Shown here: positions 1 to 12,154 of the stretch, one piece after another
Layout of the letters: the number at the start of each line of letters is the position of its first letter
Position numbering within the stretch: position 1 is the first letter of the stretch
Source of the DNA: a virus
Lineage: Duplodnaviria; Caudoviricetes
IMG/VR virus record: IMGVR_UViG_3300028833_005986
Coordinates: 1 to 64,000 of that record
Direction: 5' to 3' (one strand)
Length of the DNA: 64,000 nucleotides
The notes under the pieces: model-generated
Told to the model about the DNA's origin: nothing
Database searches by the model: none
What the model saw: the letters and a program-made list of their open reading frames with translations, nothing else
Position numbers and translations under genes: made by a program

Positions 1-3000
1 TTATTTTACAGCTTCTAAAACTTCTTGTAAATCATTTTTATTCTTTAATATTTTTTGCTGTTCTTTAAATAATTCTAATTCTTTACGCAGAGGATCTAAA
101 TAATCAGTATCTGCAGTATATTTATTTTTTTCAATAGATGCAATATATAAAGTCTTTTCTTTTTCTAAATTTTGTGGCTGAGAATAAAATAAAATTCGAT
201 TATTAGAATAAAATGTTACTGAACCACGATTATTTTTAGTTCCTGAATAATATATATAATTACCAACTATAAAATCTTTTTTATATTTATTAAATGTTGC
301 ATTATTAAAAGTTTGAGTAATAATTTCATATGGTGTAATAATTTCTACATGATATAAATGAACAATTTCTTTTATTACACCTTGTTCATCTTTTCTTGCA
401 TAATCGAAGGGTGCGATTTCTGTAATTAATCCACCTATATTACAAACTGTAGAAGCAGGAACCATTTGTACATGAGTAATTGATTTAGCTCCTACCATGG
501 GATGATATTTAAAGGATACTTTATCATTATTAAGTATATCATTTGCATACATTTGAAAATTAGTTAATTTACTATTTAAAATTGAATATTCATTATTAAT
601 AAATGGCTTTAATAATGAAGTAAGTTTATTATTTTCTTGAACTTTTTGCAATCGTCCTTTTGCTTTTTTTCTAGTAGAAATTAACTTAGCTAAATCATTT
701 TCATTAAATGTTTTATCAGCATTTGATCCATATATACCGAATTCATTTAATTTTGAAAATGGTACAATAATAGTATTATCTTTTTCAAATACTAATTGTC
801 TATCTTCTTGTAAAAATTTAGGTAATTGAATTTTTTCTAATATGTAATTTTTTTCAGCTTTTTGATTTTTATAATCATAATAAAATTCAAACCATGTAAG
901 TAATTCTCCTCGACTTAAATATATTGGCATTCTACCAAATAATTTATTTTCTTCAGTTAATGTTTTATCTTCGAAAATAATAGGTAATCCTTCAAAACAA
1001 TCATTATTAATTAATGTTTCAATTATTTTTTTATTAACTGCGCCTTTTGCCGCACGTGCAAAAAAATCATTAATGGAATCATAAGGTTGATTTTCTAAAA
1101 TAATCTGAATTGCTGCATTACCAATACCTTTTATTTGACCTAATCCAGTACGAATATAATCATCAGTAATAATAGCCTCAGATTGAGATAAATTTATATG
1201 AGGACCTAATATATTTATTCCTTTATGTTCTGCTTCTTGTTTATATAAAGCAAATTTAGAATTATCAAAAGTAATCATCGCTGCATAAAATGCGATCGGA
1301 TAATTAGCTTTTAACCAAGCCATTTGCATAGTTATTATTGAATATGCGTAAGCCGTTTAAAATATGGACTATATTTTAATATATATATTAAAGATTATTA
1401 GTCTCTGATATAATTTATTATATAAGTTAATAAGTATTAATTTAATTTATCATATAAAATATTACCTTTACGCAATATTCCAATATTATTATAATATATT
1501 TCATTTTTTAAAATTTGCATATTAGTAATTATACTTGTACTTAATTGATAAAATGGCATAGAATACTTTTTTCCTTGAATATTATGTAAATTTAAAGATT
1601 GCATATTAAACCAATTCTCTAATATATTTTTACACCAAGCTAAAAATTCTTTTGATGTACTTACAATATAAAATAACTTTCCATTATGTAATATGCAACC
1701 ATCACCATCAATAATGCCTTGAAATATATAAGGTAAAAATTGATATTCTTCAGGATATAAAATAGGTGGATATAAATTATATGTTTTATGATATACAATA
1801 CCAAATCGTCTTAGCTGTGATACTAATAATTGATTACCTAAAGTAAAATAATATATATTTTTTTTATACTTTATCAATTTATTAGATGAATTACAATTAT
1901 TATATGATCTGATTTTATACTTTATATTAAAATTATTAGCAAATAATATTACAGCTTCAAAATCAGTCATTCGTAAATCAATCTGATTTCTACAATTTAT
2001 ACAACCGTCAGTTAACATAATACCAATAAAATATGCTTTCCAAGCACAATCTAATAACGAAAAATCATAAGCATTATATATATATGTATTTAAATGATTT
2101 ATTGTTAACAAATATTTATTTACTTCATATGGTAATAAAATTTTTATAGGTGATACAATAGTTTCTAATTTATTTGAATGTCTAATAATATTACTATTAG
2201 TAATATTTTCATAGGTATGAATAATATTATATATACTATTACGTGTTTTATATTGATATTTTATACATAAATTTTTAACTGACATACCTGCTTTATAATC
2301 ATTAATAATATTTATAATCTTTTTATTTTGTAAAAATTCTTTATTTTGCATATTAATCCCATTCATTATATTAACTTATATAATTTTATTATATACTGAT
2401 TAATTTAAAATTATAAATTATTCCAGTAATTTTTCTTTTTAAGTCACACTAAATGACTTGCATTACTATAAATTATTATTAATTTTTTAAATTAATACTT
2501 TTTCATAAAAAGTATAGATTATATCATTATGTATATATTTAACAATTAATCGTTGATATTAATATATACTTGTATATATTAATATACTAATTATTACTAT
2601 TAAGTAATTTTTTAGTAAAATATTAAATCAAAAAAGTTCTAACAATTAAAACCATAACCTGATGATGCAAGAATAGTTTCTAACATATATTCTGCAACAT
2701 CTTTACTAAATCCGTTATTTATACTTTTTTCAACAAATGTATTAATAAAATCTTCATATTGTTCTGGAAATTTCTTCTTTTTTTCAATATATCGGCGTAA
2801 TTGATCTGCTTCGCCGAAGCTAATATTTAACATTGTACTTAATATTTGCATATATTTATATTTATAATTAATATTATATTAATTATATTAATTTTCATTA
2901 ATAATTTGGAATATATCTTTATCATTAATATTAAATATTTATTCTCTAGAGTAAATATATAATAATATATATTTACTTTGATATTAATATATATAATATA

Positions 3001-4748
3001 TTTCATCAAATTAAATTAATTAACAAAGTATATTATCTTTGTTCTTGAAATAAAATTACTCCGTAAGTACGATTTAAATAACGATCAATACGTGGATCTA
3101 TTTTTACTCTAAATTTCTGATCATTTTTTGCTTTAATATAAGTATCAACTTGACCTGAACCGGGGCGAATTAATGCTGTTACAGCTGCAACTTCATGAAT
3201 ATTATTAGGCTGTATTTTTCTTAGTATTGGTTTTGAAATTTTAATATTATCCATCTGAAAAATCCCAATAACATCTAAATCACATAATAAATTATAAGCT
3301 TTAGAATCATCTAATGGAATATTTTCTAATTTTATTTCGCCATGCATTTTTTGTGCAGCATCTACAGCATAATATTTTTTAATTAATTGAAGAACTAAAT
3401 CCATTTGGGATAAAGCCGAAAGTTTTAATCAATTATATATAGACTATATTTTTTTTCAATTATATATTTACTAAATATTAGTCGTTAAATACATATTAAT
3501 TTATGAATTAATATGTATTACTGATCTATTAATTCCAGTAATTAATAATATTAACCGACGCATAAACTTTACGTCTATCTTAACTAATCCAAAATTTTCA
3601 AAATTTTCTTTTTCTGCTTGAGCTAGATATCCTGGTTCAGTATCTGCATTAATTACTTTTGCTTGAGTAACTGGTAATAAATCTGTTACTGGTATTGGAG
3701 ATACTCCAACACCAGATGGATGCATTGATATTTGTCTAACTGTACCTTCTAATAATTTAGCATATTTTATTACATCTGGATATTTTTTAATAAATTCCTG
3801 TGCACCTGGTAATTTTTCTAAATTATCTATATGATCTATTGGATTTCCGTCTAAATCTCTATCAGGAATATTTTTAGTAAAATTATTTACTTCATCATAT
3901 GGTATACCTAATACACGACCAACATCTTTTATACATTGTTTCATTTGCATTTTCATAAATGTACATACATTGGCTACATATTCTTTCCCATATTTATCAA
4001 TTAAATGCTGAAATACTTGAGGACCTTTTAACATACAATAATCTGTATCTATATCCATTAACATTTATATTTTCATATAAAATTAGACTATCTCTTTTAA
4101 CTTTTATATAAAGCTAATTAAAACGCTTCGAATAGTAACTCATCTTCTATTCTACTAAAATTAGTCGTTACACATTTAATAAAGATAAACTTCAATAATA
4201 ATTCTTAAATAAACATTGATATTTAATAGTTTTATTTAATTGAGTATATTCTTTTAAATTTAAAAAATCTAATATTTTATTATTAATTGTCATATATCCA
4301 AATTTATCTTTATTATTTTGCACGGTATCACCAGCTATTTATTTTTTTTATATATAATATATTAAAAAAAAATAAACCTTAGGCTTTCTTAGTTAGCTAT
4401 TTATTATTTAATTATTAAGAATTAATTTTATTTTGCTAATACCGTTAGCAACAAAATTTAATATTTGTTACACTGCTGAGTTATGGCATTCATTTTAAAT
4501 GCCCAATATCGTTTAGGCAAATGCTTTCGAGTAGGATTTAAAAAACGTTCAAAAATAAGATCATAATCAATAGGATCCATTTTTGTTATTCCTAATAGAT
4601 TATTAACTACAGATCCTCCGCCAGAATTATGTACTACTAAGCCATCAATATTATATGAATGAATATCATCTATTTCTAAATCGTATACTTTACCTTTATA
4701 ATGATATTCTTTTTTATTGGTAATTTTAATTAATTTAATAAATATCAA
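1..4748 (-). CDS. dnaE: DNA polymerase III alpha subunit, C-terminal half, with N-terminal split-intein (IntC) leader; 6 exons (4748-4515, 4055-3571, 3429-~3041, ~2856-2644, 2460-2453, 1353-1), ~893 aa
   Basis: Removing five introns joins the DnaE motifs in frame: FERFLNP..LP|DIDTD, GLVKIDV|LKL, YGVILFQEQ|YMQI, GYGFN|SSH|AYAY..AWLKANYP, plus HhH GLGQIKGIG. The exon sum is 2682 nt, divisible by 3. The PHP/N-terminal half is absent from the window. Confidence 0.9.
1354..2452 (-). mobile_element. Group I intron dnaE-I5 (1099 nt) carrying a LAGLIDADG endonuclease ORF
   Basis: P1 AAGUCAU/GUGACUU with terminal U-G; AAUUACUGGAA P4-like element; P7 CAGAGACUA/AUAUAGUCC; ends AAACG before GCT TAC GCA TAT. 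Confidence 0.9.
1437..2366 (-). CDS. Intron-encoded LAGLIDADG homing endonuclease / possible maturase
   Basis: Two motifs, YFIGIMLTDG and IFQGIIDGDG, with an N-terminal HTH-like segment; lies inside dnaE-I5. Confidence 0.88.
   Translation of the reverse strand: MNGINMQNKEFLQNKKIINIINDYKAGMSVKNLCIKYQYKTRNSIYNIIHTYENITNSNIIRHSNKLETIVSPIKILLPYEVNKYLLTINHLNTYIYNAYDFSLLDCAWKAYFIGIMLTDGCINCRNQIDLRMTDFEAVILFANNFNIKYKIRSYNNCNSSNKLIKYKKNIYYFTLGNQLLVSQLRRFGIVYHKTYNLYPPILYPEEYQFLPYIFQGIIDGDGCILHNGKLFYIVSTSKEFLAWCKNILENWFNMQSLNLHNIQGKKYSMPFYQLSTSIITNMQILKNEIYYNNIGILRKGNILYDKLN
2461..2643 (-). mobile_element. Miniature group I intron dnaE-I4 (183 nt)
   Basis: Short P1 AAUU/GAUU; UCAACGAUUA...GAUAUAAUCU (P7 GAUUA/UAAUC); P9 hairpin AUACUUUUU-AUG-AAAAAGUAU; terminal G at 2461; restores GFN-SSH. 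Confidence 0.8.
2857..3040 (-). mobile_element. Miniature group I-like intron dnaE-I3 (184 nt, boundaries +/-2, non-canonical ends)
   Basis: 5' hairpin AACAAAG/CUUUGUU; CUAGAGAAUA...AAGAUAUAUUCC (P7 GAAUA/UAUUC). Removal restores FQEQ-YMQI, but the intron then ends in A. Confidence 0.7.
3430..3570 (-). mobile_element. Ultra-small group I intron dnaE-I2 (141 nt)
   Basis: P1 GACGU/GCGUC; P4 UUACUG/CAGUAA; 12-bp P6 hairpin; UUUAACGACUA...AUAUAGUCU; terminal G at 3430; GT|A restores KIDV-LKLSAL. Confidence 0.88.
4056..4514 (-). mobile_element. Group I intron dnaE-I1 (459 nt, ORF-less)
   Basis: P1 UGCCU/GGGCA; UGCUAACGGU; GUAACGACUA/GAGAUAGUCU; terminal G; restores HLP-DIDTD at the catalytic aspartates. 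Confidence 0.9.
4626..4748 (-). mobile_element. C-terminal fragment (IntC, 41 aa) of a naturally split intein
   Basis: KLIKIT...VYDLEIDDIHSYNIDGLVVHN followed by Ser+1 (SGGGS, the DnaE GRG-S site); no intein N-part or DnaE N-half upstream. Confidence 0.85.
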
Positions 4749-4754
4749 TCCCTT

Positions 4755-5786
4755 CTATAATAATTTATTTCGTAAATCAATACTATTTAAAATATCTAAT
4801 TCATCAGGTTCAAATGAAATATGACTTTTTACATATGCTATTTTTGATGCTCGAGTTTTCGCTTTTAATTTTTGAATTAATAATAACCTTTCTGATTTAT
4901 GTAACCATTTATTAAATGTTAAACAATTATAATAAAATTTTTTAAATGATGAAGTATCATTAAAAATATCATTATAAAATTTATTACAAATTAATTCTAA
5001 TTCAGATGAACTTAATTTACGTAATTGATTTTCCCAAAATTCAAAATCCATTGTATGTTCATATACATATTTAAATAAAATATCTCTAATTATATCTTTT
5101 ATTTCATTATTATAAAATTGTGCAAATAAATCATAATATAAATCAAAATGATCTTTGTATACAAATTGAAATATTTGTATACGAAATTCTAAGGGAATTT
5201 TCGTATTTAATATAGAACGTTGTGCTCGATAATTAGATATTAATAAATCTTGTAATATTATTCTTTTATGAATATTAGTTAACTTATCATAAAATTTTAT
5301 TAATACATCATCATAATAATAATTATCATTAATCGCATATAATAATATCTTATTTAATTCATCTGTTGTTAATTCAAGTAGTTCTATTAATCGTTCGCAG
5401 TTTAACAATTGCGTTCCATGAGTTGCACAATTATTAATAATACTTGTACGTAGCATTTTTTTATCTTCATTATTTATATATAATTTCTGTTCAAATAAAT
5501 CACAAGCTAACTCAAAATTTAATTTTGCAATATTCATATATGCATTATATAATTTTTGTTCATTTTTATCAAGTTGTAATGGCAATTTATGTAAATTTAT
5601 TAAATCAGCTCTAAGTATATATTTTAAAGTAGAACTTTGACATTGTGCTAATACTATAGTTGCTTTTTTGTTATTATCATAATAACCATATTGATATTCA
5701 TACGTAATTGTTTCATTACTATCTTTATATAATTTACATATTTGTGAAGAAAATATATCATATAATTTATCTAAATCATACCTCAA
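4755..5786 (-). CDS. Hypothetical protein (343 aa)
   Basis: Long ORF with GAGG RBS, abutting sppA; no recognisable motif. Confidence 0.75.
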   Translation of the reverse strand: MRYDLDKLYDIFSSQICKLYKDSNETITYEYQYGYYDNNKKATIVLAQCQSSTLKYILRADLINLHKLPLQLDKNEQKLYNAYMNIAKLNFELACDLFEQKLYINNEDKKMLRTSIINNCATHGTQLLNCERLIELLELTTDELNKILLYAINDNYYYDDVLIKFYDKLTNIHKRIILQDLLISNYRAQRSILNTKIPLEFRIQIFQFVYKDHFDLYYDLFAQFYNNEIKDIIRDILFKYVYEHTMDFEFWENQLRKLSSSELELICNKFYNDIFNDTSSFKKFYYNCLTFNKWLHKSERLLLIQKLKAKTRASKIAYVKSHISFEPDELDILNSIDLRNKLL

Positions 5787-6611
5787 TTATATCAATCCTT
5801 TCATATTATTAATAGCTGATAAATCTAACATTGATGTCATATTAATATTAAATAATTTAGATAATAATGATGCTTTTTTCGTATATGTTTTTATTTTTAC
5901 ATATTGTCTATTAGTTTTTAATAATTCTATTGCATATTCAACAGTATCATCAAAATCTTTATAATCATCAATTAAATTATTATTTAAAGCTATATTTGCT
6001 GTAACAAAACGCCCATCTAATAATTCGACATTATCTATTTTACGATATTTTGTTACCATTTTTATAAAAATATTATGTGAATATAATAACATCTGTTCAA
6101 TATATTCTTTTTCTTCAAGAGTCATATCTCTAAAAGCATTACCGATATCTTTCATTTTTCCTGATTTTAAATAATTAATTTTTATACCAATTTTATCGCT
6201 TAAATCTTTTACATTAGGTATTGGCATAATAACACCAATACTTCCAAGTAATGACATTTTATTAGCAAAAATATAATTACATTGACTTGCTATTAAATAA
6301 GCTGCAGAACAACCGATATCACCAATACTTGCAATAGTAATTATATTTTTTTGTCTAAGTTTATTAATTATGTTTGCAATTTCTTCACCTGCAGCTGCAG
6401 TACCACCTGGAGAATTAATTTTAAATATAACTAAATGCTGATTCGCAGAATCTTCTAATATATTTCTGCATTGTTTAACAATTTCTTGAGATACACAATT
6501 ATTATTAATATTATGATTATTGGCATAAGAAATATTACCAATTATATCAATAATATCAATAATTTTATTAGAAGATTTGAAAAAATTTAATTTAAACAAA
6601 ATAGAATTCAC
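5787..6611 (-). CDS. sppA: Signal peptide peptidase, S49 family
   Basis: INSPGG, SAAYLIAS, GSIGV, KSGKMKD motifs. Confidence 0.88.
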   Translation of the reverse strand: MNSILFKLNFFKSSNKIIDIIDIIGNISYANNHNINNNCVSQEIVKQCRNILEDSANQHLVIFKINSPGGTAAAGEEIANIINKLRQKNIITIASIGDIGCSAAYLIASQCNYIFANKMSLLGSIGVIMPIPNVKDLSDKIGIKINYLKSGKMKDIGNAFRDMTLEEKEYIEQMLLYSHNIFIKMVTKYRKIDNVELLDGRFVTANIALNNNLIDDYKDFDDTVEYAIELLKTNRQYVKIKTYTKKASLLSKLFNINMTSMLDLSAINNMKGLI

Positions 6612-6614
6612 TCC

Positions 6615-6857
6615 TTACTCTAATAAACCTACTTGAACTGCTTCTTCAATTGATAAATTATAAATTTTATGATTAACAATAATTGAATTAACTCTATGTA
6701 AGAATTTTTTATGATTTTTTTCTTCTTCTGTTAATTCATCTTCATCCCTTAATGATTTTAATAATCGCTGTACAGAATCTAATATAAGTCCGCCAGAATA
6801 AAATAATGGTCTATTAAAAGATAGTACTTCTGGTTCTTTAGGTAAAAAACTACTCAT
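6615..6857 (-). CDS. Hypothetical protein
   Basis: ORF with AAAGGA RBS in an operon-like run. Confidence 0.65.
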   Translation of the reverse strand: MSSFLPKEPEVLSFNRPLFYSGGLILDSVQRLLKSLRDEDELTEEEKNHKKFLHRVNSIIVNHKIYNLSIEEAVQVGLLE

Positions 6858-6875
6858 ATAATTAATATTTCCTTT

Positions 6876-7241
6876 CTATTTAATATTTGATATTGATGAT
6901 AAAGGTACTTCGATAATATCTAATTGATTATTATTACTAATTGCTACTTTAATTAATCCATTAATATCACTAACACCAATAATAATACCGTCTATTGTAT
7001 TAGTAGATAAATCATTAATATTTAAATCAGTAACTTGACAAAATTTACTAACTAAATTATGTTGTTTATTCTTATAAATATTAATTCCTTGTAATTGTAA
7101 TTGTTCATTAATAGTATCAAATAATTCATCGATTATATATTTATATTTATCAGCTAAAGCTACATCTTGATATATGGCTAAAGCTTCTAAAATATTAACA
7201 ATATGCTGAGGTGAAACTTCTAAAAATATTTTTTTTTCCAT
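6876..7241 (-). CDS. Hypothetical protein
   Basis: ORF with AAGGAG RBS. Confidence 0.7.
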   Translation of the reverse strand: MEKKIFLEVSPQHIVNILEALAIYQDVALADKYKYIIDELFDTINEQLQLQGINIYKNKQHNLVSKFCQVTDLNINDLSTNTIDGIIIGVSDINGLIKVAISNNNQLDIIEVPLSSISNIK

Positions 7242-7282
7242 ATTTATTACTCCTTTTTATTTAATTTATATTATTAATTAAA

Positions 7283-7325
7283 ATAAAATAAAGACTAGAT
7301 TTAAAAAATCTAATCTTTATTATTT
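7283..7325 (-). terminator. Probable intrinsic terminator
   Basis: Near-perfect hairpin AUAAAGAUUAGAUUU..AAAUCUAGUCUUUAU followed by a U-rich run, downstream of the 3D gene. Confidence 0.55.
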
Positions 7326-7370
7326 TATTATAAGAAAAAATTAATAAATTTTTCTTTCTCGTTGAAAAAT

Positions 7371-7853
7371 TTATAAAACTGTAACATAAATAGTTCTTCG
7401 TCCAAATTCATAACATTCATCAATATTATTCATTGCAATATCAATTATGCCATAACCCATTCCACCAGTATCTAATACTGTATAAGTACCATTTATCCAT
7501 GGAGCTGAAGGACATTCAATCCATAATTGTGTACCAATTGGAAAATCGTTTGAAGCTACTCCCCAGCCAATTACATCATATAAATTATGTCCTGATGCTG
7601 TATAAGATCCACCTTCATCCGGAGAATATGCAGTAGCTTCCATACATATTTCTGATGATACATATTGTATTGATAAGGTATTAGCTAAAGATGGTATATC
7701 ATCTGCAACATTTAAATTAGTATTAATAACATGTGCAGAAGATATATTAGGAATATAACAGAATATACTACAACTAACAATACTAGCTAAATATTTTAAA
7801 TTTTTTTTAAGATTATTTAAATTAACAATATTATTAAATTTTTCTTTAAACAT
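7371..7853 (-). CDS. 3D-domain (MltA-like) cell-wall protein with signal-like N-terminus
   Basis: MEATAYS, TASG, FPIGT, LDTGG, IDIAM motifs. Confidence 0.85.
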   Translation of the reverse strand: MFKEKFNNIVNLNNLKKNLKYLASIVSCSIFCYIPNISSAHVINTNLNVADDIPSLANTLSIQYVSSEICMEATAYSPDEGGSYTASGHNLYDVIGWGVASNDFPIGTQLWIECPSAPWINGTYTVLDTGGMGYGIIDIAMNNIDECYEFGRRTIYVTVL

Positions 7854-8218
7854 TTTTAGTGTTTAAACCGAGAAAATAAACATTCGCCTCTTCTTATTAT
7901 AAAATTATTAAATGATAATATTTTCCGTGATATTTTCACTTTTTAGAAAATATTTTATTTTAAGCAACTAAAGATTCGACTCTCGGTTATGTTATATATA
8001 TTTTAAGCATTACCAAAATTTATATATAACAGCCTACAATCTTATTTTCGTCACAAAAAATATCATTTAATTATATATATAATAAAAAAAGCTATAAAAA
8101 AAATTAATGATTAGATATTTAAATATCTAATCATTAATAATTCTTATTGATATAAAAGAATATTTTTCTCATATTAATTATATATTTATTTTATTTAATT
8201 TGATAATTAATTATATAT

Positions 8219-9004
8219 TTATTTTGATAATAAAGAACGCCATTTATTTCCTAAATTATATAAATTATTCCAACGCTCTTCCTGCGGATCATTAAAATTT
8301 TTCCAAGGTTTCCCACAGGTTAATTTACTTTCACTACATTTACCTGTACAAAAACAATTCGGGCCACTTAATTTAAATATTTCAGGACACTCTTTAACTA
8401 AAGCTTCTCTAATTTTATATGTAATATATCTAATTTCAGTAGTATTTCGGAAGCATATACGTAAAGCTATAAGATTTAACAGGGTGCGAATATTCGCAGT
8501 AATTAATAAGTTGTTTCTCATAGCTTGCGGTGTAACAGCTCTAGTAACATCATGAGTTAATTTATATTGATTTTGCATTTCTTGATATACATCATGCGCT
8601 TTATTACATATATTAAAGAAGTCTTTTAACGGCTCTATAGAATTTAATTCTTCACATTTTTCAAATATTTCTATTGGTACTACAAAATCTGGTTTTTTCC
8701 AGTTAGAATAATGTTGACTACCTGAAGAATATGAAATTCCTATACGCGATCTAGTAACTTGTGCTAAAAAAGCGCGTGAAGCACCAGATATTAATATTGA
8801 ATATGAACAATGTTCTAATGGAGAATGTTTGCATTTTATTAAATTAGTAATTATATTTAAATCTTTATCATCATGATTATTTAAATTAGAATTAATAAAA
8901 AAATCATCATTGGTTTTAAAATTTAATCTAGTAGAATTAGCAACAAATTTGATAGGATCTACATTTGGTTTTTGTATAATTTCAATTTTTATCTGATCCA
9001 TCAA
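8219..9004 (-). CDS. thyX: Flavin-dependent thymidylate synthase (divergent motif)
   Basis: HSPLEH, SRAFLAQVTRSR, SQHY, N-x-R..LR, CF..GKCSE motifs. Confidence 0.82.
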   Translation of the reverse strand: MMDQIKIEIIQKPNVDPIKFVANSTRLNFKTNDDFFINSNLNNHDDKDLNIITNLIKCKHSPLEHCSYSILISGASRAFLAQVTRSRIGISYSSGSQHYSNWKKPDFVVPIEIFEKCEELNSIEPLKDFFNICNKAHDVYQEMQNQYKLTHDVTRAVTPQAMRNNLLITANIRTLLNLIALRICFRNTTEIRYITYKIREALVKECPEIFKLSGPNCFCTGKCSESKLTCGKPWKNFNDPQEERWNNLYNLGNKWRSLLSK

Positions 9005-9557
9005 TTAACTTCCTTTCATAACCTAATTGATTTAATATATCATCATTAGTATAATTAATAATTTGCTTTAATTCAGTCCATGATATATTTTGATAATTAA
9101 AATTATCATTAAATTCTTTTTCTGGAATAAATTTATTAGGATTAATAGAAATTAAATTCAACATTGATAATTCTTCTTCAGATAATGAAAATAATATTTC
9201 AGCTAATTGATTAATAGTTAATGAGTTATTATAAAATGTCATATTTAATACGAATATTTCATTTATAATTGTTCCACAATCAAAACCGAATGTAAAATCA
9301 ATAACTTGTAATTTATATTGTTCAACAAAATTTATAAAATCAGATTCATTACCTTTAATAATTATTAAAGGATAAATTGTATAATTATTTTTTATAATAG
9401 CACCAATATATGGATATTTATTATTTATTAGCATATTTTTAATTTGTGATATCGATAAGTTTTGTTTTATTTTTGGTATACGATACATAGATACATCCTG
9501 CTTTCTATAAATTATATAAATCATTTTCTTGCTTGTATAAATCTTGTCTAATTGCAT
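8982..9557 (-). CDS. Hypothetical protein
   Basis: ORF between dCMP deaminase and thyX; start uncertain. Confidence 0.6.
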   Translation of the reverse strand: MQLDKIYTSKKMIYIIYRKQDVSMYRIPKIKQNLSISQIKNMLINNKYPYIGAIIKNNYTIYPLIIIKGNESDFINFVEQYKLQVIDFTFGFDCGTIINEIFVLNMTFYNNSLTINQLAEILFSLSEEELSMLNLISINPNKFIPEKEFNDNFNYQNISWTELKQIINYTNDDILNQLGYERKLIDGSDKN

Positions 9558-10077
9558 CTAATAATTGTATTTCTTGTATATTAGTATCTTTAAAGATATT
9601 TATTTTAGGCTCATGTACTTGATCATAAATTACTTTTATAATACCGCTATTAATAATAACTGCAGCACAATTAGAACAAGCTTGACAAGTTATATACATA
9701 GTAGCATTTTTTCTTTCTTCAGGAGTAGCAAATATGCAACTATTTACTTCAGCATGAATTGGAAATCTACCGCATTTACCATTTTCTAAAAGAATACAAT
9801 TATTATTTGTACAATTATCACAATTATTAGCTAATCCATTATATCCAGTCGATACTATCTTTTTATCTTGAACAATAATTGCGCCTACTTGTCTTTTAAT
9901 ACAAGTAGAACGAGATGCAACTTGATATGCAATATTCATAAAATATTGATGAATATGTTGTCTATTATAAATATCACGGTAATTCTTTATATCTTCATTA
10001 GTTAATTTTAAAGCAAAATGCGTCATATAAGCTGAAGGATGTTGTAAATTTTGATTAAATAATTCAATATTATTCAT
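9505..10077 (-). CDS. dCMP deaminase
   Basis: RSTC..RQVGA, STGYNG, HAE, CxxC zinc motifs. Confidence 0.9.
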   Translation of the reverse strand: MNNIELFNQNLQHPSAYMTHFALKLTNEDIKNYRDIYNRQHIHQYFMNIAYQVASRSTCIKRQVGAIIVQDKKIVSTGYNGLANNCDNCTNNNCILLENGKCGRFPIHAEVNSCIFATPEERKNATMYITCQACSNCAAVIINSGIIKVIYDQVHEPKINIFKDTNIQEIQLLDAIRQDLYKQENDLYNL

Positions 10078-10097
10078 ATAAAAACAAATCCTTTTTA

Positions 10098-10871
10098 TTA
10101 ATGTACAAATAAATAATCAGGAATATTTAATATATTAATATTATCTATGTTATTTGTATAAAAATATTTAGTATAATCTACTAATTCTACTGTTTTATCA
10201 TAATATACAATATAATCATTATCCAGATTAATTTCATCATTTTTAATTTTTAATTTATATTGAATATCTTGTTGATTTAAAAAATAATAATTATGCATAT
10301 TATGTATACTATTTAAATATACAATAGCTTTTTTAGCTTGAATATTTCCAAAATATTCACCTTGCAGATTATAATTATTAATTATCGATATACATGTATT
10401 AATATTTTTTTGTAAATCGGTAAATGAATTATTATTTAAAATAATAAAAGGTAATTGAATATTTTGCATATATTGTTCAAAATTATAACAAATTTGTTCA
10501 ACATCTTTAATACTGACTAATTCATCACCAACATCATTTATTCGTTGTTTTATAATATCTAAATCCGCGCGAACATAAATAAATAATACTTTTACTTTAT
10601 TGCGTAATAATTTATCAAAATCATAATTATATTGAATATTATAATTACGATATATTGGACCATATACTTTTTCACTTTCATAAAAACGGTCAATAATATA
10701 TAATTTATTAGGATTTAATTGATTAATAAAATTTAAATATTTATTATATGCTTCTTGCTCAGTTTTCGGTGCAGTAAAATGAATATATTCATAATTAATT
10801 AATTTAGATTTTAATTGATTACAAAAAGTAGTTTTTCCAGTTCGATCGCATCCAGAAATAATAATAACCAT
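10098..10871 (-). CDS. Thymidylate/dNMP kinase-like protein
   Basis: P-loop GCDRTGKTT; IIDRF..SEKVYG. Confidence 0.8.
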   Translation of the reverse strand: MVIIISGCDRTGKTTFCNQLKSKLINYEYIHFTAPKTEQEAYNKYLNFINQLNPNKLYIIDRFYESEKVYGPIYRNYNIQYNYDFDKLLRNKVKVLFIYVRADLDIIKQRINDVGDELVSIKDVEQICYNFEQYMQNIQLPFIILNNNSFTDLQKNINTCISIINNYNLQGEYFGNIQAKKAIVYLNSIHNMHNYYFLNQQDIQYKLKIKNDEINLDNDYIVYYDKTVELVDYTKYFYTNNIDNINILNIPDYLFVH

Positions 10872-10969
10872 TAATTAATTCTCCTTAATAATTATTTTTT
10901 TTATTTATATACTTATTAAAATTAGTAATTTTTTAATTAGATATTTTTAATAATATTAATTAAAATTAA

Positions 10970-11296
10970 TTATTTATTTCGATTTAATTGTTCATTAAAC
11001 CAAAGTCTTTCGTCTTTTGCTGAAGAATCATCCGTAATAATTTTATCAATATTTAATGATAATATATATTTTGATTCTTGTTTATCTTGAGACAAATTAT
11101 TTTGATATAAAAAATGTTGTAAAATTGTATCATTCCATTTGGAAAATTCATTAGCTATCCAATTTCTAAATAATTTTATATCTCCTTTCGCGTCTATATC
11201 ATCATTACTAATTACTTCAAAATCAAATTTTACTGTTAATTTTATTTCTTTTTTCTTTTTACGGGGTTTAGCAGTTAATCTTTTTATAATACTCAC
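10970..11296 (-). CDS. Hypothetical protein
   Basis: ORF only. Confidence 0.55.
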   Translation of the reverse strand: MSIIKRLTAKPRKKKKEIKLTVKFDFEVISNDDIDAKGDIKLFRNWIANEFSKWNDTILQHFLYQNNLSQDKQESKYILSLNIDKIITDDSSAKDERLWFNEQLNRNK

Positions 11297-11313
11297 CTCT
11301 ATAAAAAAATATT

Positions 11314-11997
11314 TTATTGTGAACGAGTATAAATTAGTTGTTGAATATATTTAGATGAATATATTATTGCTGATTTTTTTTTAGTAAAATTAATAGTACG
11401 ATTTAAATATTCATGAAATTTATATTGTACTTTTTTATTATTTCTTATTGATCTAATATGATTATATATTGTCATTATATTAACATTTAAAATATTACTT
11501 ATTTCATCAAATGTATAACCACATAAATATAATTTTATAATAGCAATATGAGTAGGCTTTAAATATTGATAAATGTCTGTTTCCAAAAAAGTATAAAATT
11601 CCATATCATTATTAAATTGTGCAATACGTTTATCTTCAATAATATCTATTAAATTAATCGTTTCATCTGAAGTATCTATAGGCTTATCTAAATAAGCTAA
11701 TGGCAAAGTTGGTATTCGTTTTTTTGCATTATTATAATATATAATTACATGAATATAATTTCGTGCTATTTTCCAAAAAAATGTATTAAATTTAATATTT
11801 AATAACGGATTATATTTATGTATTGCTTGAATTAATGCAATACATAATTCTTGAGATAAATCTTCATTATGAAATTTAAAAGCAATATAATTAAATTTAG
11901 GACGATAATATCGATAAATCTTGTTAAATATATCATTTTTTATAGTTTCATTATCTTCTTGCTGATATTGTATTACTAATTGATTAATATTATTCAT
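11314..11997 (-). CDS. Sigma-70 family (group 4/SigH-like) RNA polymerase sigma factor
   Basis: EDLSQE..AL..AIHKYNP..KFNTF region 2; GYTFDEIS.ILN..TIYNHI region 4 HTH. Confidence 0.82.
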   Translation of the reverse strand: MNNINQLVIQYQQEDNETIKNDIFNKIYRYYRPKFNYIAFKFHNEDLSQELCIALIQAIHKYNPLLNIKFNTFFWKIARNYIHVIIYYNNAKKRIPTLPLAYLDKPIDTSDETINLIDIIEDKRIAQFNNDMEFYTFLETDIYQYLKPTHIAIIKLYLCGYTFDEISNILNVNIMTIYNHIRSIRNNKKVQYKFHEYLNRTINFTKKKSAIIYSSKYIQQLIYTRSQ

Positions 11998-12154
11998 TAC
12001 TTTAGCCTTCTTTCATCTTAAAATTATTTTTATCATTAATATTTACTATATTTAAAATAGTATTTTAAAAAATATAAAAGTAAATAATTAGATTTAGATA
12101 AAAAAAATAATCCGCTAAAAAAATTTTAAAGGATTATTTTCTAATAAATAATTT

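What the first reader, a model, noticed from the sequence alone, without database searches (positions are those of the whole stretch)
2453..2460. 8-nt micro-exon between two back-to-back introns supplies a conserved DnaE His
The GFNxSHAxAY motif is complete only if CAAGTCAT is spliced between AAT T (ends 2644) and GCT TAC (starts 1353), giving N-S-S-H-A-Y-A-Y. The micro-exon is preceded by a terminal G, and seven of its eight bases form P1 of the next intron (AAGUCAU/GUGACUU). This implies ordered splicing and a possible exon-skipping route (inference).
Basis: partly seen in the sequence, partly recalled or inferred. Interest (0 to 1): 0.82.

Follow-up and report, generated by a model that had tools for sequence, protein, structure and literature searches.

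The report
Tiny exon between two phage introns
A giant phage's DNA polymerase gene has two self-splicing introns so close together that only about 13 bases of coding sequence (not 8, as first read) lie between them; this tiny exon is real and encodes a conserved Ser-His, but such exons are already known from mitochondria and other phages.

Summary
The micro-exon is real. An intronless relative (P0006) aligned to the window leaves exactly three residues (x-S-H) uncovered between the exon ending ...GYGFN and the exon starting AYAY.... Three relatives (91, 82 and 70% identical) carry only the first 183-nt intron. In them the window's CAAGTCAT, or a synonymous version, runs straight into GCTTAYGC.

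Two site pairs obey the U(-1) and terminal-G rules and both keep the frame. Six lines of evidence favour exon 4 ending at U2649, intron D at 2648-2466, and a 13-nt micro-exon TAATGCAAGTCAT (2465-2453) giving N-A-S-H. In that model D's P10 and E's P1 use separate bases of the micro-exon, so ordered splicing is not implied.

A relative has an independent 15-nt micro-exon, and four intron sites lie within 18 nt of this motif. This scan has already found 4- to 11-nt micro-exons between tandem group I introns in other phages. No RNA data exist for this gene.

The parts
   Evidence: Pfam DNA_pol3_finger positions 122-162. tblastn to P0006 residues 267-335. The 5' end at 2852 is set by comparison with intronless L015, L017 and L007.
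2466..2648 (-). Intron D: 183-nt ORF-less group I intron. P1 is GGUUU|UAA-UUG-UUAGAACU, P4 UACUAA/UUAGUA, P5 UUACU/AGUAA, P6 a 12-bp hairpin, P7 GAUUA/UAAUC, and the terminal G is G2466.
   Evidence: RNAalifold on four homologues, P1 energies, alignment to paralogue gyrB intron 2. Present in L012, L010 and L007; absent from L013, L019, L015 and L017.
2453..2465 (-). Micro-exon TAATGCAAGTCAT (13 nt), encoding the last base of Phe plus Asn-Ala-Ser-His.
   Evidence: Contiguous with the downstream exon in L012, L010 and L007. Fills residues 336-338 of P0006. In-silico joins translate to ...GYGFNASHAYAY (favoured) or ...GYGFNSSHAYAY (reader).
1354..2452 (-). Intron E: 1099-nt group I intron. P1 is AAGUCAU/GUGACUU (2459-2453 with 2447-2441), P10 GCU/AGU, P4 UACUGG/UCAGUA, P6 a 15-16-bp stem holding the ORF, P7 GACUA/UAGUC, and the terminal G is G1354.
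   Evidence: Folding. Exact insertion relative to L012. Core is homologous to the introns of L017, L018 and L015, with an A-U to G-C change in P4.
1437..2366 (-). Intron-encoded double-motif LAGLIDADG-type homing endonuclease, 309 aa (motifs FIGIMLTDGCI and FQGIIDGDGCI)
   Evidence: PHROG 4645 'endonuclease' E 3.9e-23 and PHROG 11023 'homing endonuclease with LAGLIDADG motif' E 3.6e-5. Pfam LAGLIDADG_3 scores 22.4 bits against a cut-off of 22.5. 50% identical to the ORF in the L017 intron.
1..1353 (-). dnaE last exon (AYAYSIITMQMAWLKANYP..., HHH_6 domain, stop at 3-1)
   Evidence: Pfam HHH_6 E 4e-19. Homologues P0001-P0009.
2853..3036 (-). Intron C (184 nt), non-canonical ends in this genome (5' exon ends in G, intron ends in A)
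   Evidence: Comparison with intronless L015, L017 and L007 and with the L010 and L013 copies.
3430..3570 (-). Intron B (141 nt). P1 is GACGU/GCGUC with a U.G pair; terminal G is G3430.
   Evidence: Read from the sequence and from the exon join D-V-L-K-L-S-A-L-S-Q compared with P0006 and L007.
4056..4514 (-). Intron A (459 nt). P1 is UGCCU/GGGCA with a U.G pair; terminal G is G4056. The join gives HLP|DIDTDYC.
   Evidence: Sequence. The Pfam DNA_pol3_alpha profile runs 66-102 then 103-258 across the join.
4626..4748 (-). Int-C half of a split intein (...GLVVHN|SGGGS) at the start of this dnaE piece
   Evidence: Pfam Intein_splicing positions 120-155, E 0.0023 (below cut-off). No DNA_pol3_alpha positions 1-65 anywhere in the 167-kb record.

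Best explanation
The C-terminal dnaE piece of this AT-rich giant phage is interrupted by five miniature group I introns. Two of them, D (2648-2466, 183 nt, no ORF) and E (2452-1354, 1099 nt, with a LAGLIDADG homing endonuclease in P6), are independent ribozymes that flank a 13-nt exon, TAATGCAAGTCAT.

D is the older resident, because it is shared with relatives down to 70% protein identity. E is a later insertion, presumably by endonuclease-driven homing, into a D-bearing allele 13 nt downstream of D's 3' splice site.

Each intron picks its own sites with its own guide. D's guide 5'-UUA|GAACU-3' pairs GAACU with exon 4 (GGUUU, U2649.G2639) and UUA with the first three bases of the micro-exon (P10). 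E's guide 5'-AGU|GUGACUU-3' pairs GUGACUU with the last seven bases of the micro-exon (U2453.G2447) and AGU with GCU of the last exon.

The two splicing events restore ...G-Y-G-F-N-A-S-H-A-Y-A-Y.... The helices on the micro-exon do not overlap, so neither intron needs the other to go first.

Shown here: the insertion points, the helices and the homologies. Inferred: self-splicing, homing, and the choice of 13 over 8 nt.
For: (1) Exactly three residues are missing between the flanking exons. Intronless relatives read GFNQSH, GFNRSH and FNASH.

(2) L012, L010 and L007 carry D only, followed by contiguous ...CAT GCT TAT... Their differences there are all synonymous: AGT/TCT/TCA for Ser, GCA/GCT, AAT/AAC.

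(3) E's P1 folds at -6.6 kcal/mol, z -3.25. The fold with the ORF removed gives P1, P4/P5 and a long P6 stem around the ORF. P7 (GACUA/UAGUC) was not in that fold; I read it from the sequence, and it fits the genome-wide covariation in (5).

(4) For D, RNAalifold on four homologues predicts P1, P4, P5 (one compensatory C-G to U-A), P6 and P7.

(5) Across the 167-kb record, R-like and S-like core motifs covary in P7: C with G 15 times, U with A 17 times, mixed 5 times, although the A form of S is six times commoner in the background.

(6) For 13 nt rather than 8 nt:
- The P1 hairpin with U2649.G2639 scores -2.0 to -2.9 kcal/mol in all four genomes, with a G.U/G-C swap at its base in L007.
- P10 lies contiguous with P1 on the guide, as in gyrB introns 1 and 2 and in L015 intron 1.
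- The paralogous gyrB intron 2 aligns its terminal G with G2466.
- D-less relatives read AAT GCN TCN CAT, that is N-A-S-H.
- A 16-nt fossil, TATGGTTTTAATGCAA, inside the L017 intron equals the 13-nt-model join.
Against: - There is no RNA evidence of any kind.
- Rfam's group I model does not reach its threshold for any intron here. It gives only a 16-17-bit 3' fragment match in intron C.
- Only four D-bearing sequences exist, 88% alike, so covariation is thin.
- In 78% A+T RNA, alternative helices are easy to find.
- Other introns in this genome, such as intron C, seem to break the U.G and terminal-G rules, so rule-based choice of sites is not fully safe.
- The residue that differs between the two models (Ala or Ser) is variable in the family (A, Q, R; E. 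coli has K, from my own knowledge).
Confidence: 0.75

Rival explanations
1. One reading: intron D runs 2643-2461 and the micro-exon is the 8-nt CAAGTCAT. The product is N-S-S-H. Seven of the eight bases are also E's P1, so D's 3' exon recognition and E's P1 compete and splicing may be ordered.
For: - U2644 precedes the 5' site and G2461 the 3' site, and the frame is kept.
- A weak P1, UUUAAUU/GAUUUAA with one mismatch, can be drawn in three of the four genomes.
- The residue x of GFNxSH is variable, so Ser is acceptable.
Against: - The best exon-guide duplex is >= 0 kcal/mol in all four genomes.
- The guide G is an A in L007.
- The proposed guide overlaps the strand that best serves as P3.
- No P10 can be drawn.
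- gyrB intron 2 aligns its terminal G to G2466, not G2461.
- No relative has N-S-S-H.
- The TAAT repeat at both ends, and the synonymous-looking AAT to AAC change in L007, would be coincidences.
Confidence: 0.17
2. The gene is not restored in this genome. E, or the non-canonical intron C, does not splice, and this dnaE copy is a decaying pseudogene or is used as fragments.
For: Intron C lacks both the U.G pair and the terminal G in the window. No N-terminal dnaE half is present in the 167-kb record.
Against: - All six exon frames are open.
- Exon changes among relatives are largely synonymous at the junctions.
- E keeps P1, P10, P4, P6, P7 and an intact 309-aa ORF.
- The record is only about 34% complete, so the N-half may lie elsewhere.
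Confidence: 0.05
3. Twintron: E sits inside D, so the 8-13 nt belong to an intron, not an exon.
For: The two introns are nearly adjacent.
Against: In E-less relatives the bases after D's terminal G are needed to encode (A/S)-S-H and are in frame with the rest of the gene. Without them the frame shifts.
Confidence: 0.02

Closest known systems
Mini-exons between group I introns in mitochondrial genes (fungal cox1 and others; MFannot paper, PMC10352661)
   Same: Exons shorter than about 4 codons, flanked by self-splicing introns, carry highly conserved residues and are missed by ordinary gene callers. They are found by noticing missing conserved residues.
   Different: Here the host is a phage replication gene (dnaE), the introns are stripped-down 140-190-nt cores, and E-less and D-less alleles are available that fix the insertion points.
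[quoted passage not shown]
   Same: Several self-splicing group I introns lie in one phage gene with short internal exons. Those cases are documented by cDNA, including joining of the first intron's 5' site to the second intron's 3' site.
   Different: Those cases have RNA evidence and this one has none. The size of the phiNIT1 exon is not given in the main text. Skipping here would shift the frame.
Intron-rich huge gut phages (Jug phages, PMC12880540)
   Same: They carry about 18 small (about 206 nt) group I introns per genome, plus homing endonucleases and inteins, in replication and packaging genes. Splicing was supported by metatranscriptomes for about half of those tested.
   Different: This is a different phage: 22% G+C, a DnaE-type polymerase, and no close match in the phage collection. 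No micro-exon turned up in my keyword look at that paper (searched only for 'group I intron').
Cyanobacterial split DnaE intein (PMC2677866 and its references)
   Same: A mobile element has targeted the same GY|xFNxSH motif of DnaE. L015 intron 1 sits at Y|G, which is the equivalent point.
   Different: It is a protein-splicing element, not an RNA intron. This phage's own split intein lies at another site (VVHN|SGGGS).

Membership tests
Group I intron (intron E) | P1 between the 5' exon end and an internal guide, with a U.G pair at the splice site | tested here: met
   AAGUCAU/GUGACUU with U2453.G2447, -6.6 kcal/mol, z -3.25.
Group I intron (intron E) | Terminal G before the 3' splice site, with P10 to the 3' exon | tested here: met
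   G1354 is the last base. The insertion point is fixed by L012. P10 GCU/AGU lies next to P1 on the guide, read from the sequence.
Group I intron (intron E) | Conserved core (P4/P6 and P3/P7/P8 with P, Q, R, S elements) | tested here: inconclusive
   P4, P5 and P6 are found by MFE. P7 GACUA/UAGUC and P8 were read by eye. P4 shows an A-U to G-C change versus the L017 intron. P3 is weak. P7 covaries genome-wide.
Group I intron (intron D) | P1 with a U.G pair at the 5' splice site | tested here: met
Met for the site after U2649: RNAalifold pairs columns 19-26 with 30-38, U.G in all four sequences, and the base of the helix swaps G.U/G-C in L007; energies.
Group I intron (intron D) | Terminal G and conserved core | tested here: met
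   G2466 is conserved in all four and aligns with the terminal G of gyrB intron 2. P4, P5 (one compensatory pair), P6 and P7 are predicted by RNAalifold.
Group I intron (both) | Match to Rfam RF00028 at its gathering score | tested here: not met
   No hit at E <= 1 in 1-12000. The own-genome search gives only 6-17-bit matches to model positions 219-251, none in D or E. I take this as a limit of the model on 140-190-nt, 80% A+T introns.
Group I intron (both) | Guanosine-initiated self-splicing | not testable with these tools
   Needs in vitro transcription and a splicing assay, or cDNA.
LAGLIDADG homing endonuclease (ORF 2366-1437) | Two LAGLIDADG motifs and a family profile match | tested here: inconclusive
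   Motifs FIGIMLTDGCI and FQGIIDGDGCI are visible. PHROG 11023 E 3.6e-5 and PHROG 4645 E 3.9e-23. Pfam LAGLIDADG_3 scores 22.4 bits, just under the 22.5 cut-off. No PDB sequence match. The fold was not predicted.
DnaE (DNA polymerase III alpha) | Pfam DNA_pol3_alpha, finger and HHH_6 domains in order across the exons | tested here: met
   Profile positions continue across each join. The PHP domain and DNA_pol3_alpha profile positions 1-65 are absent from the record.

The most novel reading that the evidence does not exclude
The 18 nt that encode G-F-N-x-S-H of phage dnaE are a homing hot spot with four distinct group I intron sites:
- Y|G in L015/L016;
- TT|T for intron D;
- S|H in L015/L016, L017 and L018;
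- H|A for the window's intron E.

One intron-endonuclease lineage (endonucleases 50% identical, cores alignable) has moved its site by exactly 3 nt and rebuilt its guide sequence to match. Micro-exons (13 nt here, 15 nt in L015/L016) arise whenever two occupants coexist. A 16-nt fossil copy of the ancestral exon join inside the L017 intron would be a scar of such a retargeting event.
Probability: 0.45. Interest if true: 0.55.

Novelty: new member of a known kind. Interest (0 to 1): 0.4.

Why it matters
For annotation: this dnaE can only be translated correctly if a 13-nt (or 8-nt) exon carrying the conserved Ser-His is recognised. Gene callers split the gene into four ORFs and lose those residues.

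For intron biology: the locus offers natural alleles with neither intron, with D only, and with D plus E. Relatives also carry a related intron-endonuclease pair 3 nt away. That makes it a compact system for asking how a homing endonuclease and its ribozyme guide shift target together, and whether neighbouring introns interfere.

It is not a new principle. Mini-exons between group I introns are routine in mitochondria, have been seen by cDNA in Bacillus phages, and have been found repeatedly in this scan.

Tried and rejected
- Rfam at E <= 1 on 1-12000 found nothing. RF00028 on the whole record gave only tiny 3' fragments.
- Stop-codon recoding as an explanation of the gaps was rejected by eye: the intervening sequences contain TAA, TAG and TGA together.
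- The search for related loci in viral contigs with the last exon found no relative.
- The same search with an alignment in JGI metagenomes found only 31-36% relatives, which were useless for the junction.
- A D-intron pattern scan of viral contigs gave 0 hits.
- A search for more D-bearing alleles through the 70-aa exon-4 ORF returned only the window's own cluster.
- A look-up of the identical protein P0001 on other contigs returned nothing.
- A junction-spanning 66-aa query, meant to catch spliced transcripts, found no spliced close relative. It found only the intronless P0012 and P0013.
- A PDB sequence search with the endonuclease found no meaningful hit.
- Other slides of intron D's borders that keep the frame (exon 4 ending at 2645, 2646, 2647 or 2648) were rejected, because each puts U or A as the intron's last base or A before the 5' site.
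- The twintron reading was rejected, because E-less alleles need the 13 nt as coding sequence.

Full report
**Setting.**
- The window is the first 64 kb of a 166,990-base IMG/VR virus record. It has about 22% G+C, and CheckV rates it about 34% complete.
- On the minus strand at 4748-1 lies the C-terminal part of a DnaE-type polymerase.
- Pfam places DNA_pol3_alpha positions 66-102, then 103-258, then finger positions 10-120 and 122-162, then HHH_6, on successive ORFs separated by stop-rich gaps.
- The first ORF begins with an Int-C-like segment (...GLVVHN|SGGGS).
- No known phage is close: the best match is 27% identity, to Bacillus phage G.

**Is there a micro-exon?** Yes.
- Homologues of the last exon include three intronless forms at this point: P0005 (...GYGFNQSHAYGY...), P0006 (...NYGFNRSHAYAY...) and later P0012 (...YSFNASHAYGY...).
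- tblastn of P0006 against the window ends one block at N335 and starts the next at A339, so exactly three residues, x-S-H, are missing.
- The contigs of three closer relatives were fetched: L012 (91%), L010 (82%) and L007 (70%).
- All three have only a gap of about 183 nt here. After it the sequence reads TAATGCAAGTCATGCTTATGC (L012), TAATGCTTCTCATGCTTATGC (L010) and TAACGCTTCACATGCATACGC (L007).
- The window has TAATGCAAGTCAT, then 1099 nt, then GCTTACGC.
- The 1099-nt element E is therefore an insertion exactly between T2453 and G1353. The bases on the two sides differ, so the borders cannot slide.
- The bases just before the insertion are coding sequence in the E-less alleles, and they vary only synonymously (Ser AGT/TCT/TCA).

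**What the two intervening sequences are.**
- Rfam does not recognise them.
- Both carry the classical group I core elements, which I read against textbook consensus (my own knowledge).
- E has the following features:
  - P1 AAGUCAU/GUGACUU, with U2453.G2447 at the splice site;
  - P4 UACUGG/UCAGUA enclosing a P5 hairpin;
  - a 15-16-bp P6 stem whose loop is the 309-aa ORF;
  - an R element AUCAGAGACUAAUA and an S element AAUAUAGUCC, forming P7 GACUA/UAGUC;
  - a terminal G at 1354.
- The ORF has two LAGLIDADG-like motifs. It matches PHROG endonuclease families and sits just under the Pfam LAGLIDADG_3 cut-off.
- For D, RNAalifold on the four homologues predicts P1, P4, P5 (with one compensatory pair), P6 and P7 (GAUUA/UAAUC).
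- Across the whole record I counted R-like motifs followed by S-like motifs. The variable P7 base covaries: C with G 15 times, U with A 17 times, mixed 5 times. This holds although the A form of the S hexamer is six times commoner overall.
- The genome thus holds about 30 such cores.

**Where exactly does intron D end?**
- The sequence TAAT occurs at both ends of D, so several border pairs keep the frame.
- Only two pairs have U before the 5' site and G as the last intron base:
G2461|C2460, giving an 8-nt exon and N-S-S-H;
  - a pair 5 nt upstream, U2649|U2648 ... G2466|U2465, giving a 13-nt exon and N-A-S-H.
- I favour the second pair, for six reasons:
1. Both RNAalifold and single-sequence folding give the hairpin GGUUU|UAA-UUG-UUAGAACU, with U2649 paired to G2639. 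It scores -2.0 to -2.9 kcal/mol in all four genomes (z about -3), and L007 swaps G.U/G-C at its base.
  2. The guide then reads 5'-UUA|GAACU-3'. GAACU pairs with exon 4 and UUA pairs with the first three bases (UAA) of the 3' exon. This contiguous P1/P10 layout also appears in gyrB introns 1 and 2 and in L015 intron 1.
  3. gyrB intron 2 (26808-26620) is a paralogue of D. Its borders are fixed by the DADV|DG motif plus the terminal-G rule. MAFFT places its terminal G opposite G2466.
  5. D-less relatives read AAT GCN TCN CAT, that is N-A-S-H (L015, L017, P0012, P0013). None reads N-S-S-H.
6. The L017 intron begins with a 16-nt exact copy, TATGGTTTTAATGCAA, of the join predicted by the 13-nt model.
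- None of these is RNA evidence. I put about 0.8 on 13 nt, given that the micro-exon exists.

**Consequences for mechanism.**
- With a 13-nt exon the layout is: bases 1-3 form D's P10, bases 4-6 are free, and bases 7-13 form E's P1.
- The two ribozymes therefore use separate parts of the micro-exon, and nothing in the anatomy forces an order of splicing.
- Skipping the micro-exon would join GGUUU to GCUUAC and shift the frame.
- Exon 4's end does not fit E's guide, so I see no structural invitation to skip.
- Exon skipping by phage group I introns is nevertheless documented elsewhere (PMC11878797, citing Landthaler and Shub 1999).

**History.**
- D is shared by relatives down to 70% identity, and its copies are 88% identical on average (mean column identity of the alignment, which includes short exon flanks). 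E is found only in the window.
- L017 and L018 carry a related intron. Their endonucleases are 50% identical to the window's (E 6e-85), and the cores are alignable, with an A-U to G-C change in P4.
- That related intron is inserted 3 nt upstream, between the Ser and His codons.
- L015 and L016 carry an ORF-less copy at that S|H site, plus another intron at Y|G. This leaves an independent 15-nt micro-exon, GGATTTAATGCATC(A/T).
- Four intron sites therefore fall within 18 nt of this motif.

**Comparison and novelty.**
- Mini-exons under 4 codons between self-splicing introns 'occur regularly' in mitochondrial genes (PMC10352661).
- A small exon between two introns has been seen by cDNA in phage phiNIT1 (PMC11878797).
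- This scan has already reported 4- to 11-nt micro-exons between tandem group I introns in other phages.
- This finding is therefore a new member of a known kind.
- Its extra value lies in the set of natural alleles and in the 3-nt retargeting of an intron-endonuclease pair.

Noticed in passing
L015:5744-5758 (and L016, same coordinates): This is a second, independent micro-exon in a 48%-identical relative. The 15-nt GGATTTAATGCATCA (G-F-N-A-S) lies between an intron at Y|G (P1 AGGCUAU/GUAGCCU, P10 GGAUU/AAUCU) and an ORF-less intron at S|H. L015 ends the micro-exon in A, so there is no U.G pair. L016, from another sample, ends it in T.
   Followed up: partly
L017:2426-2441; L015:5759-5772: The S|H intron begins with a copy of the upstream exon. 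L017 has TATGGTTTTAATGCAA, a 16-nt exact match to the window's predicted exon join. L015 has the decayed GGGTTTCAACGCAA. It may be a fossil 5' exon left by imprecise homing or repair, or a P1 mimic for the guide GGGAUGCA.
   Followed up: partly
window 3036-2853 (-): dnaE intron C: comparison with intronless relatives forces a 5' exon ending in G (a G-C pair in P1) and an intron ending in A. The L010 copy ends in G. The L013 copy is canonical (CAGGU|...AAUG|A) and carries two ORFs in the loop of P1.
   Followed up: partly
whole record G000 (167 kb); in the window at about 35645, 26715, 19781, 4170, 3487, 2555 and 1407 (-): About 30 group I-like cores were found by R/S motif pairs with covarying P7 (GACUA/UAGUC or GAUUA/UAAUC). 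None is recognised by Rfam at its threshold.
   Followed up: partly
window 26808-26620 (-): gyrB intron 2 (189 nt) is a paralogue of dnaE intron D. Its first three bases (GAU) are repeated at the start of the 3' exon, just as D repeats UAAU. This looks like a family habit linked to P10.
   Followed up: partly
window 4748-4626 (-): This dnaE piece starts with an Int-C-like 41 residues ending VVHN|S. The PHP domain and DNA_pol3_alpha profile positions 1-65 are absent from the whole 167-kb record, so a split intein with a distant N-half is likely.
   Followed up: no
window 4755-5786 (-): A 343-aa ORF lies directly upstream of the dnaE piece and has no Pfam or PHROG match. It is conserved in position in L007-L009 (341 aa).
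   Followed up: no
L013:707-1480, 2502-3299: The relative L013 has a SegE-like GIY-YIG ORF upstream of its dnaE piece, plus HTH-containing ORFs inside its copy of intron C. Different endonuclease families therefore occupy the same gene in different relatives.
   Followed up: no
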